From Escherichia coli O157:H7 str. 2011EL-2287 (lineage in GTDB: Bacteria > Pseudomonadota > Gammaproteobacteria > Enterobacterales > Enterobacteriaceae): a DNA stretch of 64,000 nucleotides. Shown in pieces: positions 20,878 to 44,629 of this stretch. The translations under genes and the position numbers were made by a program. The notes beneath the pieces were generated by a model. That model did not search any database and was not told the DNA's origin. It saw only the letters and a program-made list of their open reading frames with translations. Position 1 is the first letter of the stretch; every line of letters begins with the position of its first letter. The DNA is taken from the NCBI GenBank assembly GCA_000614405.2, contig GCA_000614405.2_3612.1, one strand, 5' to 3'.

Positions 20878-21258
20878 ATGGCCCTGTGGAAGACAACAGT
20901 TGACCTTCATGATCAGTGGTTAGGACGCATCACTGAAGACGGGAAGCTAGTGGAGTGGGACAATAAGCATGTTAGCGAGTTGGCAAGTATTGTGGCTGGC
21001 AAGTTACGCTCCAAGTTCCCTGAACAACTGGATCCTGATAGTTCAAAGTTCGATCCTGAGTTGGAGGATGTTGTATACTACTTCGACACCGTTGATGACT
21101 ACGACGCGTGGTTTGCAGCACGGGAACTTTACCCACAAGGCTCTGCTATGCGTCAGATGGAAGAAGATTATCCTCCGTGTGAGCAATTCAATAGTGCAAT
21201 GACTTGCCTCTATGATTGGGCAGATAAGAACCTTGTCTGGATTCGGACTGCATTTTAG
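20878..21258 (+). CDS. hypothetical protein
   Basis: ORF in operon. Confidence 0.4.
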   Translation: MALWKTTVDLHDQWLGRITEDGKLVEWDNKHVSELASIVAGKLRSKFPEQLDPDSSKFDPELEDVVYYFDTVDDYDAWFAARELYPQGSAMRQMEEDYPPCEQFNSAMTCLYDWADKNLVWIRTAF

Positions 21259-40014: not shown

Positions 40015-40380
40015 ATGGAACAAATGAACGATCAAGCGTCGGTTGCGATGAACGAGCAAGAACAACCTCAAGAATTTTTCTTAGGGTTAAGTAAAGATCA
40101 AGTGTCTCTTCTGCTAGTGCTTTCTTCTTTCATGGGAAGACTTCAGGAGCTCACACAACAGCCAGAGGCTGAACAATTATTCCAAGCTTTGCGTGAAGAA
40201 GAAAAATATCGTCGTTTGGACTATGCCTTAGGTTGGGTAGCTCAACAACGGGATATGCTGATGGCCCTCTCTGGGACCACAAGTTTTGCAATGGGCCTGT
40301 TGGCTCAAGTTCAGGACAAATTAATTCAAGCAGGGTTCGCACACACGGCAAGCACTAACGAAGAACAAGGAGACAAATAA
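40015..40380 (+). CDS. hypothetical protein
   Basis: ORF with RBS GGAGA. Confidence 0.4.
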   Translation: MEQMNDQASVAMNEQEQPQEFFLGLSKDQVSLLLVLSSFMGRLQELTQQPEAEQLFQALREEEKYRRLDYALGWVAQQRDMLMALSGTTSFAMGLLAQVQDKLIQAGFAHTASTNEEQGDK

Positions 40381-41606
40381 TGAGCGTTATTCAACAATTC
40401 GCTAACCCAATGAATCCGCGTGAAACTGTTTTACTAGCTCACGGCATGATTAAACGTGTTAGCATCAAGCCTATTAAAGGTGCTGATCCTACAACAGGTA
40501 TTAAAACCACTGTGTGGCAAGGTAAGAAAATTGAATCCAGCCACACCATCTCTTTACTGATTTCTGAACTGGATTCCTCTGATAACCTGCTTCAAGGTGG
40601 TGAAGAAGTCTGGATCAGCATGGGTGATAAGCTGCTTAAACCCGGTCATCAAGACTCTGTCTCTGTTAAGATTGATGACAAGTGGGAAACCGTAACGCCA
40701 GGATGGATCGTAAATATCCCTTTGAAGGCAAACGAGCATAACGGTAAGACCTATTACAAGGGCTCACTGGCTAAGATGGTTAAGCTGGGTGCAGGAGAGG
40801 CTCCAGCAGCGACTCAGCAGCAAAAACAGCAACAAGGTGCACAATCACAAGGCCAGAAGCAGAAACCTCAGCAGAATGCCAATCAGGACGTTTTACGCAT
40901 CTATGGTGATGTGACTCAGATTGTTGGCAACGTGGTTACTGTTAATGACCACAAGATTGGCGAAGGTGCTATGGTTGTAACTGATGAGCAGCTTAAAGAC
41001 CTGGTGGTAGGTGGTCGTGTTGCAGCCATTGTTGACAAAGACACCGGAAACATTATCAGTGGTTTCAAGGCCTATCCTCCTAAGGCAGAGAACGGCACTC
41101 AAGGATCTGGTGGCAAGCGTAAATCCTCTTACGACCCTATCGGTGTGGAAACGGGGCATAGCATCAATGCGTTGCAGATCATCCTGGATCGCGGGTTTAA
41201 GGTAGACGACCCACTGGGCGTGGCTAAAACACTGCACGTAGTCACCATTGAGCTTAAGAAAGAGTATGCTCAAGCCACCAACCGAACTGAAGATGAAGTA
41301 GGTGCCAGTGTCGGTAATGCGGTGTTGAACGCTTGTCGCCGTATTGACAAGAAAACGAAAGTTGATGATTTTGCAGCGGCAATTACTGCAGAAGCAAAAG
41401 ATGTCTTGACTAATCTGGCTGAACCGTTGTACGATTGGATCAAGAACGGTGCTGGGTCAACCGACCATCAAGAACCTCAGGCTGCCAAACAGGAAGCAGC
41501 TCCACAGCAAAACACTGTAGACGCTCCTCCTGTAAATGATGCGGAAGATGACCCAATGGATCAGAATCCAGCACAGTACGCCTTTGATGATGACATCCCT
41601 TTTTAA
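40380..41606 (+). CDS. ssb: single-stranded DNA-binding protein
   Basis: C-terminal acidic tail ...AFDDDIPF identical in form to bacterial SSB tail; Gln/Gly-rich linker; replication-module context. Confidence 0.6.
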   Translation: MSVIQQFANPMNPRETVLLAHGMIKRVSIKPIKGADPTTGIKTTVWQGKKIESSHTISLLISELDSSDNLLQGGEEVWISMGDKLLKPGHQDSVSVKIDDKWETVTPGWIVNIPLKANEHNGKTYYKGSLAKMVKLGAGEAPAATQQQKQQQGAQSQGQKQKPQQNANQDVLRIYGDVTQIVGNVVTVNDHKIGEGAMVVTDEQLKDLVVGGRVAAIVDKDTGNIISGFKAYPPKAENGTQGSGGKRKSSYDPIGVETGHSINALQIILDRGFKVDDPLGVAKTLHVVTIELKKEYAQATNRTEDEVGASVGNAVLNACRRIDKKTKVDDFAAAITAEAKDVLTNLAEPLYDWIKNGAGSTDHQEPQAAKQEAAPQQNTVDAPPVNDAEDDPMDQNPAQYAFDDDIPF

Positions 41607-41621
41607 CAATTAGTTAACATA

Positions 41622-41650
41622 GCCCTGCCCGAAAGGGTGGGGCATTTTTG
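41622..41650 (+). terminator. rho-independent terminator (copy of 31199 terminator)
   Basis: Hairpin GCCCTGCCC-GAAA-GGGTGGGGC + ATTTTTG. Confidence 0.6.
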
Positions 41651-41668
41651 TATAAGGAGATCTGAAAA

Positions 41669-42085
41669 ATGACATTAGAAGATATCATTGTTAAACCTGA
41701 GAACTATGACCAATACAACCTGTCAACTCAATCTGTAGACCTCGGATGCGCCACAGTCAGTGCATGGCTGGTTAACGGAAAAGAGCTTGACGAGTGCCTG
41801 GAAGCACACATGTCGGTGAATAAATTTCTTGATGAAAATACCCACTGGATAGAGGGTGCAGGAGTATATGCTTCATGGTTGGAGAGTATGGGATTCGACT
41901 ACCAATCTGAAGAGGGGTGGTGGAGCTATTTAGCTGTCTGCCCAGAGACGCTGCAATGCTTCATGAAATATTCTGAAGATTTGGAGTACCGGGCGGTGGT
42001 TGATAGTGCCATTGCCCGTTATAGCCGTAAACCTTTTTCCCACGACATTAAAACTGTGGAAGAATTTGTTGAAGTTTTCTGTTGA
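41669..42085 (+). CDS. hypothetical protein
   Basis: ORF with RBS AAGGAGA. Confidence 0.4.
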   Translation: MTLEDIIVKPENYDQYNLSTQSVDLGCATVSAWLVNGKELDECLEAHMSVNKFLDENTHWIEGAGVYASWLESMGFDYQSEEGWWSYLAVCPETLQCFMKYSEDLEYRAVVDSAIARYSRKPFSHDIKTVEEFVEVFC

Positions 42086-42181
42086 CACAGGTTGAAAGGT
42101 GTGCAATTATAACTTCATATAACGGGAGGACGCGATGAACGAAGAAAACTGGGATGTATAACTAACAGGAGGCCACTGCCC

Positions 42182-42379
42182 ATGATTTATCGAATCCGTG
42201 TAAGAGAAGACGCACCAGGCTGTTACTTTGACTGGCGTGGGTGGTGGTTTCTCCACCCAATGGATGGACTCACAGATAGAATGCTGGATGCTGCCCTTTA
42301 CACAGATACCGACATAGAATATAATCTCTATCTGAAGGACGGTATAGATAACGGCCTGTTTGAAGCAATTCCTGTGTAA
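42182..42379 (+). CDS. hypothetical protein
   Basis: ORF with RBS AGGAGG. Confidence 0.35.
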   Translation: MIYRIRVREDAPGCYFDWRGWWFLHPMDGLTDRMLDAALYTDTDIEYNLYLKDGIDNGLFEAIPV

Positions 42380-42447
42380 GAGACTGTGATAACTATGTTT
42401 TATGATCTTCCTGTAGCGCCACCACCTGTTGAACCCGGAGAACTAAG

Positions 42448-42873
42448 ATGATCTATGAAATGCCAAAACTGATTCGTGACGATGCCCAAAACGCTCACAC
42501 CATTATTATGGGCAAACGCATGGATATTATTTGTCATAAAGATTTCTGGGAAGGAAGTTACTTCACAGAGTATTTTGGTAAACTGGACAATGGTCTGCTG
42601 ATCCAGTTCTACACCGATGCGGAAAACAATATCTGCTGGGAGTTCGAAACTGAAGATATCCATAAACTTTTCACCTTCCTCGGTATTAAGGTTGAGGCCA
42701 AGTTTGAAGAAGGTGAGTGCGACGATTGTGGATTCTACGAGGTAACAGATTTCTACCTCCCGAGCGGTGAGAACCTTTACTATGAAAGCCACTTCGGTAA
42801 CTCCAATATGCCACAGTGCTGGACTGAGTTTTTTGAAATTGCGGAAGAGGAGCTGGCATACCGTGATTATTGA
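42448..42873 (+). CDS. hypothetical protein
   Basis: ORF immediately upstream of macro-domain gene. Confidence 0.4.
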   Translation: MIYEMPKLIRDDAQNAHTIIMGKRMDIICHKDFWEGSYFTEYFGKLDNGLLIQFYTDAENNICWEFETEDIHKLFTFLGIKVEAKFEEGECDDCGFYEVTDFYLPSGENLYYESHFGNSNMPQCWTEFFEIAEEELAYRDY

Positions 42874-42922
42874 TACTGTAGGGGGAGATCTAATCTCTCT
42901 TTTCAAGAAAGGGTCGGGCCAC

Positions 42923-43321
42923 ATGATCCACGGTTGTAACTGCTTTCACACAATGGGTGCAGGCATAGCGAAAGACATTGCCCGTGAGTTCCCTCAAGCA
43001 CTGGCAGCCGACAAAGAGACTGCTTATGGTAATCTAGACAAGCTGGGTATGTTTTCTTGTTGGGAGCATTTTGCCAAGAACAGGGCCGTATATGGAATCA
43101 ACCTGTATACCCAGTTCTACCCAGGGCCCAATGCTGAATACTTCTCAATCATGAAAGGTTTTGAGCGAGTCAACGAGGTATTCAAAGGTGTGTCATTGCC
43201 GTTCTACATTCCTAAAATCGGATGCGGTATTGGCGGTCTAAAGTGGGAACATGTAGAAGATGTAATTAATCTTGCAACCACAGATATTGATGTGGTTGTA
43301 GTAGAGTACAAAAAGTGTTGA
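42923..43321 (+). CDS. macro-domain (ADP-ribose binding/processing) protein
   Basis: HGCNCFHTMGAGIAKDI and IPKIGCGIGGLKW resemble macro-domain Gly-rich loops; start uncertain (ORF track frame opens at 42767). Confidence 0.55.
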   Translation: MIHGCNCFHTMGAGIAKDIAREFPQALAADKETAYGNLDKLGMFSCWEHFAKNRAVYGINLYTQFYPGPNAEYFSIMKGFERVNEVFKGVSLPFYIPKIGCGIGGLKWEHVEDVINLATTDIDVVVVEYKKC

Positions 43322-43375
43322 CGACCATCTTCTGAGGTGATATAGTCTCCACAACAACTAAGAGAGGAGAGCACT

Positions 43376-43546
43376 GTGGAGACTAAAATCTTAATTCTTG
43401 CTGTGGTAGATACAACCGAAGGAGCTATATTCGAATCTGCAGGAGGGTATTTCTACCTACCATACGGAAAAAGAACTTCCGAGCCAAGTAAAGATTCAAT
43501 CCGCAAAGTGTTCCCGTGTGCTTTCTGGCTGGAGATTTTGGTATAA
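43376..43546 (+). CDS. small hypothetical protein (56 aa, GTG start)
   Basis: Below ORF-track threshold; strong RBS AGAGGAGAG 7 nt upstream of GTG. Confidence 0.3.
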   Translation: METKILILAVVDTTEGAIFESAGGYFYLPYGKRTSEPSKDSIRKVFPCAFWLEILV

Positions 43547-43572
43547 GATTGCAGAGGATTTGGGAGAGAATT

Positions 43573-43767
43573 ATGAGAAACAAGAAAGAGCTTTACTCTG
43601 GTGAGTGGATCAACGATCAACAGGTGGGAGAGGTAACCTGCTTCCGATGTTTTACCAGGTACAATCTTAAAACTGCACCAAAAAGTGTTCCAAAGACTGA
43701 TGGTTATTACATAAAAGAACCTTATTGCCCAAAATGTAAATGCCGATTATACTGGAGTAACCTGTAA
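43573..43767 (+). CDS. zinc-ribbon protein
   Basis: CFRC ... CPKCKC cysteine pairs; ATG after GGGAGAG RBS. Confidence 0.4.
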   Translation: MRNKKELYSGEWINDQQVGEVTCFRCFTRYNLKTAPKSVPKTDGYYIKEPYCPKCKCRLYWSNL

Positions 43768-43830
43768 AAGATTGACATCTGAAAACTGCAGTGTATAATA
43801 TATGCATAAACTAACAGAGAGTGATGTATT

Positions 43831-44022
43831 ATGGTAATTTTTAACCGGGATGGTATCATAGTTAGACAGCACCCGTTCCTTGAATACTATCAAATTGAGC
43901 AATGGTGCTACGGGGATTGCAGTCACTCCTATGGGCAAAGTTGGGGATATCGTACAGTTTTTGAATCCACAGACCTTGACAAAGTAAGACAGAAAGTTTT
44001 AGAACTTATTAACAACAAGTGA
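43831..44022 (+). CDS. hypothetical protein
   Basis: ORF with RBS. Confidence 0.35.
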   Translation: MVIFNRDGIIVRQHPFLEYYQIEQWCYGDCSHSYGQSWGYRTVFESTDLDKVRQKVLELINNK

Positions 44023-44029
44023 GTATGAT

Positions 44030-44362
44030 ATGGTAACATTAGAAAGACGTAAAGCTATCGCCGCCACACTGGCAGACATCTTTTGGGAGTGCAATTTAAA
44101 AGATACTAGATATTGTGGCGCATCTGTAGATGCATTGTTCCCACGGCCTACTATTGTTGCAATGGGCAACCTGCTCGATGTGGTATATGGAGCATGGGAC
44201 AAGGAAGGTGGATTCTATATCTGGCAACCTGACTACGGGACTTGGAAAGAGGTTAGTGGTTCTTCGGACTTCACTCCTGCAGTGGCTAAAATGGATGGCT
44301 GGAAAATCTATGTCGGTAACGACATGGAACTGAAAGGCGAAATTGTTTACTGGTTACCTTAA
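44030..44362 (+). CDS. hypothetical protein
   Basis: ORF in operon. Confidence 0.4.
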   Translation: MVTLERRKAIAATLADIFWECNLKDTRYCGASVDALFPRPTIVAMGNLLDVVYGAWDKEGGFYIWQPDYGTWKEVSGSSDFTPAVAKMDGWKIYVGNDMELKGEIVYWLP

Positions 44363-44383
44363 GAAAGTCCAGGAGATAAAGTT

Positions 44384-44629
44384 ATGAACAAAGGGTGGAC
44401 ATTTGTAGACGGCGTTAAAAACATGCCTCTAGGAAAGTATATTGTAGCCATGGCAGATGAGAATGGCAATGTGGATTTCGGAGCTTGCGAGGTTGTTCTT
44501 GCAGGATCTGGTAACTATGTGGACAAAACCGGGATAATTAACGGTCAGTTCTACTTTGATCACAACCCTGTTGTAGCGTATATGGCTATGCCAGAGTTCA
44601 AGTTCCCAAAGGAGGGTGCAGATGTTTAA
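44384..44629 (+). CDS. small paralog-family protein
   Basis: RBS AGGAGA; beta-rich small protein. Confidence 0.4.
   Translation: MNKGWTFVDGVKNMPLGKYIVAMADENGNVDFGACEVVLAGSGNYVDKTGIINGQFYFDHNPVVAYMAMPEFKFPKEGADV

What the first reader, a model, noticed from the sequence alone, without database searches (positions are those of the whole stretch)
42448..43321. Macro-domain protein overlapping an unknown upstream partner
The ORF starting near 42923 has Gly-rich loops (GCNCFHTMGAGIAKDI, IGCGIGGLKW) resembling macro domains that bind or hydrolyse ADP-ribose derivatives. Its frame overlaps the 3' end of an uncharacterised 141-aa gene. Phage macro domains could reverse ADP-ribosylation-based defences or degrade nucleotide-derived signals. 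The start codon is ambiguous and no RBS is obvious.
Basis: partly seen in the sequence, partly recalled or inferred. Interest (0 to 1): 0.5.

Follow-up and report, generated by a model that had tools for sequence, protein, structure and literature searches.

The report
Phage macrodomain of the Tk.4/AdfM family
This is a small phage enzyme of a well-known family (macrodomain, the same family as phage T4 Tk.4/AdfM) that most likely strips ADP-ribose off phage DNA to defeat the bacterial DarTG2 defence; it is real but ordinary, and the upstream gene it overlaps is not a conserved partner.

Summary
The window is an rV5-like coliphage (Vequintavirus; 99.8% identical to phage PDX). The macro-domain gene is real. 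It starts at GTG 42863, with a GAGGAG ribosome-binding site 10 nt upstream, not at ATG 42923, and ends at 43321 (152 aa). It overlaps the upstream 141-aa ORF by 11 nt.

It passes Pfam Macro and hits phrog_335 at 8e-60. It folds confidently (pLDDT 94.7) into a TARG1/DarG/Poa1p/SCO6735-type macrodomain. It is 39% identical over its full length (E 8e-44) to T4 Tk.4. A 2025 preprint named Tk.4 AdfM because deleting it makes T4 sensitive to DarTG2.

Asn26 and Gln84 are invariant in 119 of 119 family members. Gln84 occupies the position of the catalytic Lys of DarG and TARG1, as Gln85 does in SCO6735, an enzyme shown to cleave thymidine-linked ADP-ribose from DNA.

Relatives in GenBank already annotate this gene as 'Tk.4', 'macro domain protein' or 'Poa1p-like'. 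The Bas54 orthologue is non-essential on E. coli K-12.

The upstream ORF is an acidic protein with no known fold relative. It lies far from any macro gene in every other lineage that has it, so it is not a conserved partner.

Verdict: a new member of a known kind, of low interest. The anti-DarTG2 role of this orthologue is inferred, not tested.

The parts
42863..43321 (+). Macrodomain gene, 152 aa, GTG start, TGA stop; orthologue of rV5 'Tk.4', bas54_0092 and JLBYU08_122
42847..42852 (+). Shine-Dalgarno GAGGAG, 10 nt upstream of GTG 42863
   Evidence: Invariant in 6 Vequintavirus genomes.
42863..42873 (+). 11-nt overlap (GTGATTATTGA) between the macro start and the stop of the upstream ORF
   Evidence: The same overlap is annotated in relatives.
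42923..42925 (+).
   Evidence: It reads CTG in JLBYU08, nomo and Alma.
42938..42940 (+). Codon of Asn26, equivalent to DarG Asn22, SCO6735 Asn27 and PhiKZ AdfM Asn23
   Evidence: Invariant in 119 of 119 sequences. Alignments. Roles of the equivalent residues.
42953..42970 (+). First Gly-rich loop, MGAGIA (residues 31-36); in macrodomains this loop lines the ADP-ribose-binding cleft
   Evidence: M31, G34 and A36 are invariant. General role of the GxG loop: PMC9503650.
43112..43114 (+). Codon of Gln84, at the position of the catalytic Lys80 of DarG and Lys84 of TARG1, and equivalent to Gln85 of SCO6735
   Evidence: Invariant in 119 of 119 sequences, with PhiKZ gp104 having Lys here. Profile-to-PDB alignments. 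The SCO6735 Q85A mutant is inactive.
43217..43237 (+). Second Gly-rich loop, IGCGIGG (residues 119-125), the diphosphate-binding loop
   Evidence: G120, G122 and G125 are invariant or nearly so. It aligns to the SCO6735 segment PRIGCGLAGG; mutating a conserved Gly of that protein (G128E) reduces its activity.
42448..42873 (+). Upstream 141-aa ORF (phrog_8157, pI 4.25), function unknown; orthologue of bas54_0091. A neighbour, not a demonstrated part of the macro system.
42297..42325 (+). Sigma-70-like promoter match (TTTACA, 17-nt spacer, TATAAT; 11 of 12 positions), 120 nt upstream of the 141-aa ORF; a possible promoter for the two-gene unit
   Evidence: This is a consensus match only; the total number of matches in the region is not above chance.

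Best explanation
The gene at 42863-43321 encodes a stand-alone macrodomain ADP-ribosyl hydrolase of the phage Tk.4/AdfM family, in the TARG1/DarG/SCO6735 ('ALC1-like') class. Its most likely role is counter-defence. When a host DarTG2 toxin-antitoxin system releases DarT2, that toxin ADP-ribosylates thymidines in single-stranded phage DNA and blocks replication. The phage enzyme would bind the ADP-ribose through its two Gly-rich loops and hydrolyse the ribose-thymine bond, restoring replicable DNA.

Catalysis would be of the Gln type described for SCO6735. Gln84, held in place by Asn26, positions the distal ribose, and water does the chemistry. There is no catalytic Lys as in DarG, TARG1 or PhiKZ AdfM.

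Shown here: macrodomain fold, family membership, invariant Asn26 and Gln84, homology to T4 Tk.4, and dispensability of the Bas54 orthologue on K-12.

Inferred: the substrate (thymidine-ADP-ribose on DNA) and the anti-DarTG2 phenotype for this orthologue.
For: - Family scores: Pfam Macro above the gathering score; phrog_335 at 8e-60, the same family as T4 Tk.4 (1e-65) and PhiKZ gp104 (8e-43). The only named hit in the NCBIfam and PADLOC searches is DarG, over the macrodomain region alone.
- Homology to T4 Tk.4: 39% identity over the full length, E 8e-44.
- Published genetics: the HIDEN-SEQ preprint reports tk.4 as the single T4 gene depleted on a DarTG2 host. A clean knockout became DarTG2-sensitive, and the gene was named adfM.
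- Published biochemistry on relatives: PhiKZ AdfM removes DarT2-made ADP-ribose from DNA in vitro. SCO6735 is among the closest solved structures by sequence. It cleaves thymidine-linked ADP-ribose DNA and rescues cells from DarT. Its Q85A mutant is inactive and its N27S mutant nearly so.
- Conservation: Asn26 and Gln84 are invariant in 119 of 119 sequences.
- Structure: AF2 model with pLDDT 94.7; top Foldseek hits are TARG1, Poa1p, DarG, BT1257 and SCO6735.
- Dispensability: the Bas54 orthologue bas54_0092 has insertions at 31 of 31 TA sites and is classed 'Non-essential' on K-12, as expected for an accessory counter-defence gene.
Against: - No Vequintavirus macro gene has been tested against DarTG2. 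The Bas54 transposon library was only passaged on K-12 and two clinical strains.
- The T4 evidence is genetic and comes from a preprint. No biochemistry exists for any Gln-type phage macrodomain.
- Identity to T4 Tk.4 is only 39% and to SCO6735 about 22%.
- The SCO6735 'mobile loop' lysine Lys89, which contributes to its DNA activity, has no equivalent here; the loop is shorter and carries a PGPN motif.
- Enzymes of this class are promiscuous. SCO6735 and TARG1 also act on Glu-linked protein ADP-ribose and on uracil-ADP-ribose in RNA, so DNA may not be the only or the main substrate.
Confidence: 0.7

Rival explanations
1. It reverses ADP-ribosylation of a different macromolecule. Candidates are Glu/Asp-linked protein ADP-ribose or uracil-linked RNA ADP-ribose. 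It could counter another ART-based defence or toxin, or tune ADP-ribosylation made by the phage itself.
For: SCO6735 and TARG1, of the same class, hydrolyse PARP-made protein ADP-ribose and uracil-ADP-ribose on ssRNA. The fold and active site alone do not discriminate between substrates.
Against: The only phenotype reported for a family member (T4 tk.4) is DarTG2 sensitivity. No ART gene was looked for or seen next to the gene. CmdT-type adenine RNA ADP-ribosylation is described as irreversible so far.
Confidence: 0.15
2. It processes a small ADP-ribose derivative. It could be a Poa1p-like ADP-ribose-1''-phosphate phosphatase or an O-acetyl-ADP-ribose deacetylase. It could also degrade an ADP-ribose-derived immune signal. 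This is what the 'phosphatase' and 'Poa1p-like' annotations imply.
For: GenBank and PHROG labels read 'phosphatase', 'Poa1p-like' and 'A1pp motif'. Poa1p is among the top structural hits. Iyer and colleagues (2022) argued that phage macrodomains mostly target low-molecular-weight ADP-ribose derivatives.
Against: The labels are transferred by homology, not tested. The T4 genetics point to DarTG2, a DNA-modifying system. The closest sequence relatives with known activity (SCO6735, DarG, TARG1) are macromolecular de-ADP-ribosylases.
Confidence: 0.1
3. The 141-aa upstream ORF and the macrodomain form a two-protein counter-defence unit. For example, they could act as a split DarG-like antitoxin, with the acidic upstream protein binding DarT as the DarG C-terminal domain does.
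For: - The two genes overlap by 11 nt and may share a promoter.
- The upstream protein is very acidic (pI 4.25).
- Of the four genes of this block that were checked, only these two are shared with Krischvirus. The macro is 67-68% identical and the upstream ORF 37% identical there, while the other two checked ORFs are Vequintavirus-only.
Against: - In RB49 the homologue (ORF064c) lies 9 kb from tk.4.
- Three other lineages carrying the upstream ORF have no macro gene within 3-4 kb.
- More than 2,600 phage records carry a Tk.4-type macro gene without this ORF.
- It has no similarity to the DarG HMMs.
- Overlapping junctions are common in this gene block.
Confidence: 0.05

Closest known systems
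Phage T4 Tk.4 = AdfM (anti-DarT factor Macrodomain), HIDEN-SEQ preprint 10.1101/2025.11.20.689424
   Same: - Same PHROG (phrog_335).
- 39% identity over the full length.
- Same size (152 vs 155 aa).
- Shared HGCNCFHTMG and NLYTQF-PGPN motifs, including Asn26 and Gln84.
- A stand-alone gene in a block of small same-strand genes.
- Non-essential on K-12.

   Different: - Different genome context: T4 has vs - tk.4 - tk.3, whereas here the gene lies downstream of the SSB gene.
- The anti-DarTG2 phenotype is shown only for T4.
Streptomyces coelicolor SCO6735 (PDB 5E3B), Gln-type ALC1-like macrodomain
   Same: Gln at the position of the catalytic Lys and Asn at the position that locks it. Both align in the profile comparison, alongside BT1257. 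SCO6735 hydrolyses thymidine-ADP-ribose DNA and neutralises DarT.
   Different: - Only about 22% identical.
- The window protein has Gly24 where SCO6735 has Val25.
- It has a shorter loop after Gln84, without the Lys89 of SCO6735.
- SCO6735 is a cellular gene, not a phage gene.
DarG2 antitoxin macrodomain (T. aquaticus and M. tuberculosis; PDB 5M31, 5M3E, 5M3I)
   Same: Same fold class and the same Asn. It is the best named hit in NCBIfam and PADLOC.
   Different: - It scores 44.9 bits against a family cut-off of 250.
- It has no C-terminal DarT-binding domain.
- It has no adjacent darT gene.
- The catalytic Lys80 is replaced by Gln84.
Chimallivirus AdfM (PhiKZ gp104), Cell Rep 2026, PMC13309987
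   Same: A phage-encoded stand-alone macrodomain in the same PHROG, with demonstrated removal of DarT2-made ADP-ribose from DNA.
   Different: - 21% identity, pairwise E 3e-4.
- Lys-type active site, with Lys78 aligning to Gln84.
- It is imported into the phage nucleus.
Human TARG1/OARD1 and yeast Poa1p
   Same: Top structural matches (Foldseek E about 2e-9).
   Different: The TARG1 Lys84/Asp125 dyad corresponds to Gln84/Gly124 here. Poa1p phosphatase activity was not tested and is not suggested by the T4 genetics.

Membership tests
Macro domain (Pfam PF01661) | Score above the Pfam gathering threshold | tested here: met
   25.9 bits against a cut-off of 22. Only profile positions 1-33 align.
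Macro domain (Pfam PF01661) | Macrodomain alpha/beta fold | tested here: met
   AF2 model with pLDDT 94.7 and pTM 0.90. There are 183 PDB matches at E <= 1e-3, and nearly all of the top 50 listed are macrodomains (TARG1, Poa1p, DarG, SCO6735, viral X-domains), the rest being engineered hydrolase designs.
Phage Tk.4/AdfM family (T4-type, Gln-type) | Full-length homology to T4 Tk.4 and the same PHROG | tested here: met
   39% identity, E 8e-44, covering 150 of 152 residues. Both proteins hit phrog_335.
Phage Tk.4/AdfM family (T4-type, Gln-type) | Conserved active-site Asn (HGCNC) and Gln (YTQ) | tested here: met
   Asn26 and Gln84 are invariant in 119 of 119 sequences, T4 Tk.4 included.
Phage Tk.4/AdfM family (T4-type, Gln-type) | Protects the phage from DarTG2 | not testable with these tools
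   Shown only for T4 tk.4. The Bas54 library was not challenged with DarTG2.
DarG antitoxin (NCBIfam NF048014) | Score above the equivalog cut-off | tested here: not met
   44.9 bits against a cut-off of 250. Only profile positions 8-144 of 338 align.
DarG antitoxin (NCBIfam NF048014) | C-terminal DarT-binding domain and an adjacent darT gene | tested here: not met
   The protein is 152 aa and is a macrodomain only. The upstream ORF has no hit to the PADLOC or NCBIfam models. The neighbouring genes are small phage ORFs.
DarG antitoxin (NCBIfam NF048014) | Catalytic Lys (Lys80) | tested here: not met
   Gln84 aligns to the Lys of 'PTKKHW'.
SCO6735-type (Gln-type ALC1-like) macrodomain | Gln at the Lys position together with the locking Asn | tested here: met
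   The family motif 'NlYTQ' aligns to the 'NMIGQ' of SCO6735 and BT1257, and 'hGcNC' aligns to 'HVCND'.
SCO6735-type (Gln-type ALC1-like) macrodomain | Val/Ile25 and a long Lys-bearing mobile loop | tested here: not met
   Gly24 is invariant instead of Val or Ile. The loop after Gln84 is shorter, reads PGPN and has no Lys.
Poa1p-like ADP-ribose-1''-phosphate phosphatase | Phosphatase activity on ADP-ribose-1''-phosphate | not testable with these tools
   Only structural similarity (Foldseek E 2.5e-9, 21% identity) and homology-transferred labels.

The most novel reading that the evidence does not exclude
The fold-orphan acidic 141-aa protein encoded just upstream may work together with the macrodomain as a two-part anti-DarTG device. 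One half would erase the DNA mark and the other would bind or mimic the target of DarT. This could also explain why Vequintavirus and Krischvirus share both genes. Alternatively, the 141-aa protein could be an unrelated, new kind of counter-defence protein with a new fold.
Probability: 0.07. Interest if true: 0.55.

Novelty: new member of a known kind. Interest (0 to 1): 0.2.

Why it matters
It matters little beyond annotation. It would extend the recently defined AdfM counter-defence to rV5-like phages, which are candidates for therapy against pathogenic E. coli. It predicts that these phages resist DarTG2 hosts.

One modest point for specialists: the whole T4/rV5-type Tk.4 family has an invariant Gln where DarG, TARG1 and PhiKZ AdfM have the catalytic Lys. 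Two mechanistic subtypes therefore hide under the single name 'AdfM' and within one PHROG. The existing 'phosphatase' and 'Poa1p-like' labels are probably misleading.

Tried and rejected
- **Start at ATG 42923:** rejected. It is not conserved, it has no better RBS, and it would remove the first beta-strand that aligns with T4 Tk.4.
- **Upstream ORF as a known family:**
  - It has no Pfam, NCBIfam, PADLOC or PDB sequence hit.
  - The word-index search found 4 homologues.
  - The exhaustive HMMER search of 1.84 billion representatives found about 10 real ones, plus three Cys-rich repeat proteins that I judged spurious.
  - The AFDB50 library was unavailable.
- **Upstream ORF as a conserved partner:** rejected from gene neighbourhoods in RB49 and three metagenomic lineages.
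- **Second macro gene or a NADAR (T4 AdfN) in the window:** none found. A weak Tk.4 tblastn hit at 20938-21132 (E 0.06) lies in an ORF that lacks the macro motifs.
- **Membership in DarG proper:** rejected (see the membership tests).
- **Promoter and terminator scan:** the total number of matches is no higher than in shuffled sequence, so individual sites are only suggestions.

Full report
**Source and setting.** The region 41600-44400 is 99.8% identical to Escherichia phage PDX and 96-99% identical to many other Vequintavirus (rV5-like) genomes. The finding lies in a run of small + strand genes downstream of a 408-aa SSB-like gene at 40380-41606.

The proposed start near 42923 is wrong, for four reasons:
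- GTG 42863 sits 10 nt downstream of GAGGAG (42847-42852).
- The GTG and the GAGGAG are invariant in six Vequintavirus genomes, whereas ATG 42923 reads CTG in three of them.
- Annotated relatives all use this start, giving a 459-nt CDS with an 11-nt overlap.
- The N-terminus from this start aligns residue for residue with that of T4 Tk.4.

The gene is therefore 42863-43321 (152 aa). The true overlap is the 11 nt GTGATTATTGA.

**What the protein is.**
- Pfam Macro is passed, with 25.9 bits against a cut-off of 22. phrog_335 hits at 8e-60.
- The only named family hit in the NCBIfam and PADLOC searches is DarG, but only over the macrodomain and far below the DarG cut-off (44.9 vs 250 bits).
- Among solved structures, the sequence matches SCO6735, M. 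tuberculosis DarG, Poa1p and TARG1. A 75-sequence family profile raises these matches to about 1e-14.
- An AlphaFold2 model built on that alignment is confident (pLDDT 94.7, pTM 0.90). Its best Foldseek matches in the PDB are TARG1, Poa1p, DarG, BT1257 and SCO6735.

It is thus a stand-alone macrodomain of the TARG1/DarG/SCO6735 ('ALC1-like') class.

**Relation to characterised phage proteins.**
- tblastn finds homologues in 2,835 of 50,697 phage records, including the T4-like phages, where the gene is called tk.4. The rV5 record itself labels its copy 'Tk.4 conserved hypothetical protein'.
- The window protein is 39% identical to T4 Tk.4 over the full length (E 8e-44).
- The HIDEN-SEQ preprint (10.1101/2025.11.20.689424) reports tk.4 as the single T4 gene whose transposon insertions are depleted on a DarTG2 host. 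A clean knockout became DarTG2-sensitive, and the authors named the gene adfM.
- Independently, a Cell Reports 2026 paper named PhiKZ gp104 AdfM. It showed that the protein removes DarT2-made ADP-ribose from DNA in vitro, with Asn23 and Lys78 as putative active-site residues.
- All three proteins fall in phrog_335. However, the window protein is only 21% identical to PhiKZ gp104.

**Active site.**
- In an alignment of the window protein, T4 Tk.4 and 117 database homologues, Asn26 and Gln84 are invariant in 119 of 119 sequences. PhiKZ gp104 has Lys at the column of Gln84.
- In the profile-to-PDB alignments, the family motif 'NlYTQ' pairs with the 'NMIGQ' of SCO6735 and BT1257. It also pairs with the 'PTKK' of DarG and the 'ITKK' of TARG1. 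Gln84 therefore occupies the position of the catalytic Lys80 of DarG and Lys84 of TARG1.
- This is the situation described for SCO6735 (PMC9411070). That enzyme lacks the Lys/Asp residues. Its Gln85 is essential (the Q85A mutant is inactive) and its Asn27 locks Gln85 in place (the N27S mutant is nearly inactive). It efficiently cleaves thymidine-linked ADP-ribose from DNA and rescues cells from DarT.
- The window protein differs from SCO6735 in two ways. It has an invariant Gly24 where SCO6735 has Val25. It also has a shorter loop after the Gln, reading PGPN and lacking the DNA-binding lysine Lys89.

**Most likely mechanism.** The enzyme is made during infection. It probably removes ADP-ribose that DarT2 has placed on thymidines of single-stranded phage DNA, using a Gln-type active site, and so keeps replication going.
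- Shown here: fold, family, invariant residues and homology to the T4 gene.
- Inferred: the substrate and the phenotype for this orthologue.

The Bas54 (MaxBurger) orthologue bas54_0092 tolerates insertions at 31 of 31 TA sites on K-12, as expected for an accessory gene. That library was never challenged with DarTG2. A literature search found no paper testing Vequintavirus macro genes against DarTG2.

**Rival explanations.** Enzymes of this class also act on Glu-linked protein ADP-ribose and on uracil-ADP-ribose in RNA. The 'phosphatase' and 'Poa1p-like' labels suggest small-molecule substrates. Neither alternative is excluded, but the only genetic phenotype reported in the family points to DarTG2.

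**The upstream 'partner'.**
- The 141-aa ORF belongs to phrog_8157 and is acidic (pI 4.25; 30 Asp+Glu against 10 Lys+Arg).
- It has no hit in Pfam, NCBIfam, PADLOC or PDB sequences.
- An exhaustive profile search of 1.84 billion representatives finds about ten real relatives. They share a C-terminal module, EGECDDCG-Y-V-D-LPSG-Y-E-HFGN-N-P-W-EFF.
- Among phage records it occurs only in Vequintavirus and, at 37% identity, in Krischvirus.
- In RB49 it is ORF064c, immediately upstream of dam and 9 kb from tk.4. In three metagenomic lineages there is no macro gene within 3-4 kb.
- Overlapping gene junctions are common in this block.
- The Bas54 orthologue bas54_0091 is also non-essential.

The adjacency therefore looks incidental. 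One observation keeps a small probability alive for a functional link. Krischvirus shares both this ORF and an unusually close macro allele (67-68% identity, against about 40% for T4). Two other ORFs of this block are Vequintavirus-only.

**Verdict.** This is a real, correctly recognised macrodomain. Public records already annotate it as such, and it belongs to a family whose counter-defence role was published in 2025-2026. It is a new member of a known kind and of low interest. The start codon and the 'partner' reading need correcting.

Noticed in passing
window 42603-42612 and 43111-43120; locus L020 1656-1665: A 135.5-kb Logan contig (ERR11560567) carries a 508-bp deletion of window 42613-43120 between two 10-bp direct repeats (CCAGTTCTAC). 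The deletion fuses residues 1-55 of the upstream ORF in frame to residues 87-152 of the macrodomain (P0015, 121 aa). This removes Asn26 and Gln84, and also the conserved C-terminal module of the upstream protein. It is either a natural loss variant or an assembly artefact.
   Followed up: yes
locus L010 (phage vB_Eco_Alma), about 1495-1500: The Alma genome has a 1-nt deletion in the N-terminal part of its macro gene. As a result its annotated CDS is truncated (369 nt, labelled Phi92_gp185). This is either a frameshifted pseudogene or a sequencing error.
   Followed up: partly
window 42448-42873: The 141-aa acidic protein gives a confident AF2 model but has no fold relative in the PDB or BFVD. 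It has only about 10 sequence relatives among 1.84 billion representatives. It may be a new fold with a conserved CxxC...HFGN C-terminal module. In one homologue (P0130) that module is fused to a different, Cys-rich N-terminus.
   Followed up: partly
GenBank records MG0656xx: Sixteen records named 'Campylobacter phage' with host C. jejuni match this E. coli Vequintavirus region at the DNA level; those listed are 98.0-99.5% identical. This suggests mislabelled or contaminant genomes in that deposit.
   Followed up: no
window 40380-41606: A 408-aa protein ends in DDDIPF, an SSB-type acidic tail. Relatives annotate it as a putative ssDNA-binding protein. bas54_0087, the gene at the corresponding position in Bas54, is classed as essential. 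It is followed by a strong terminator-like hairpin at 41622-41643.
   Followed up: partly
window 43772-43799, 43318-43346 and 42082-42110: There is a perfect sigma-70 consensus (TTGACA, 16-nt spacer, TATAAT) at 43772-43799. Other strong promoter-like sites lie between the small ORFs, and one overlaps the macro stop codon. This is consistent with a host-RNA-polymerase-transcribed early region.
   Followed up: no
window 43573-43767: A small protein matches Pfam Phage_zn_bind_2 (PF23903, 1.4e-21) two genes downstream of the macro gene. Relatives annotate a shorter, 64-aa CDS than the ORF that the ORF listing reports.
   Followed up: no
phrog_335: One PHROG, labelled 'phosphatase', holds both Gln-type (T4 Tk.4, rV5-like) and Lys-type (PhiKZ gp104) macrodomains. 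Two papers gave the name AdfM independently to these two subtypes.
   Followed up: yes
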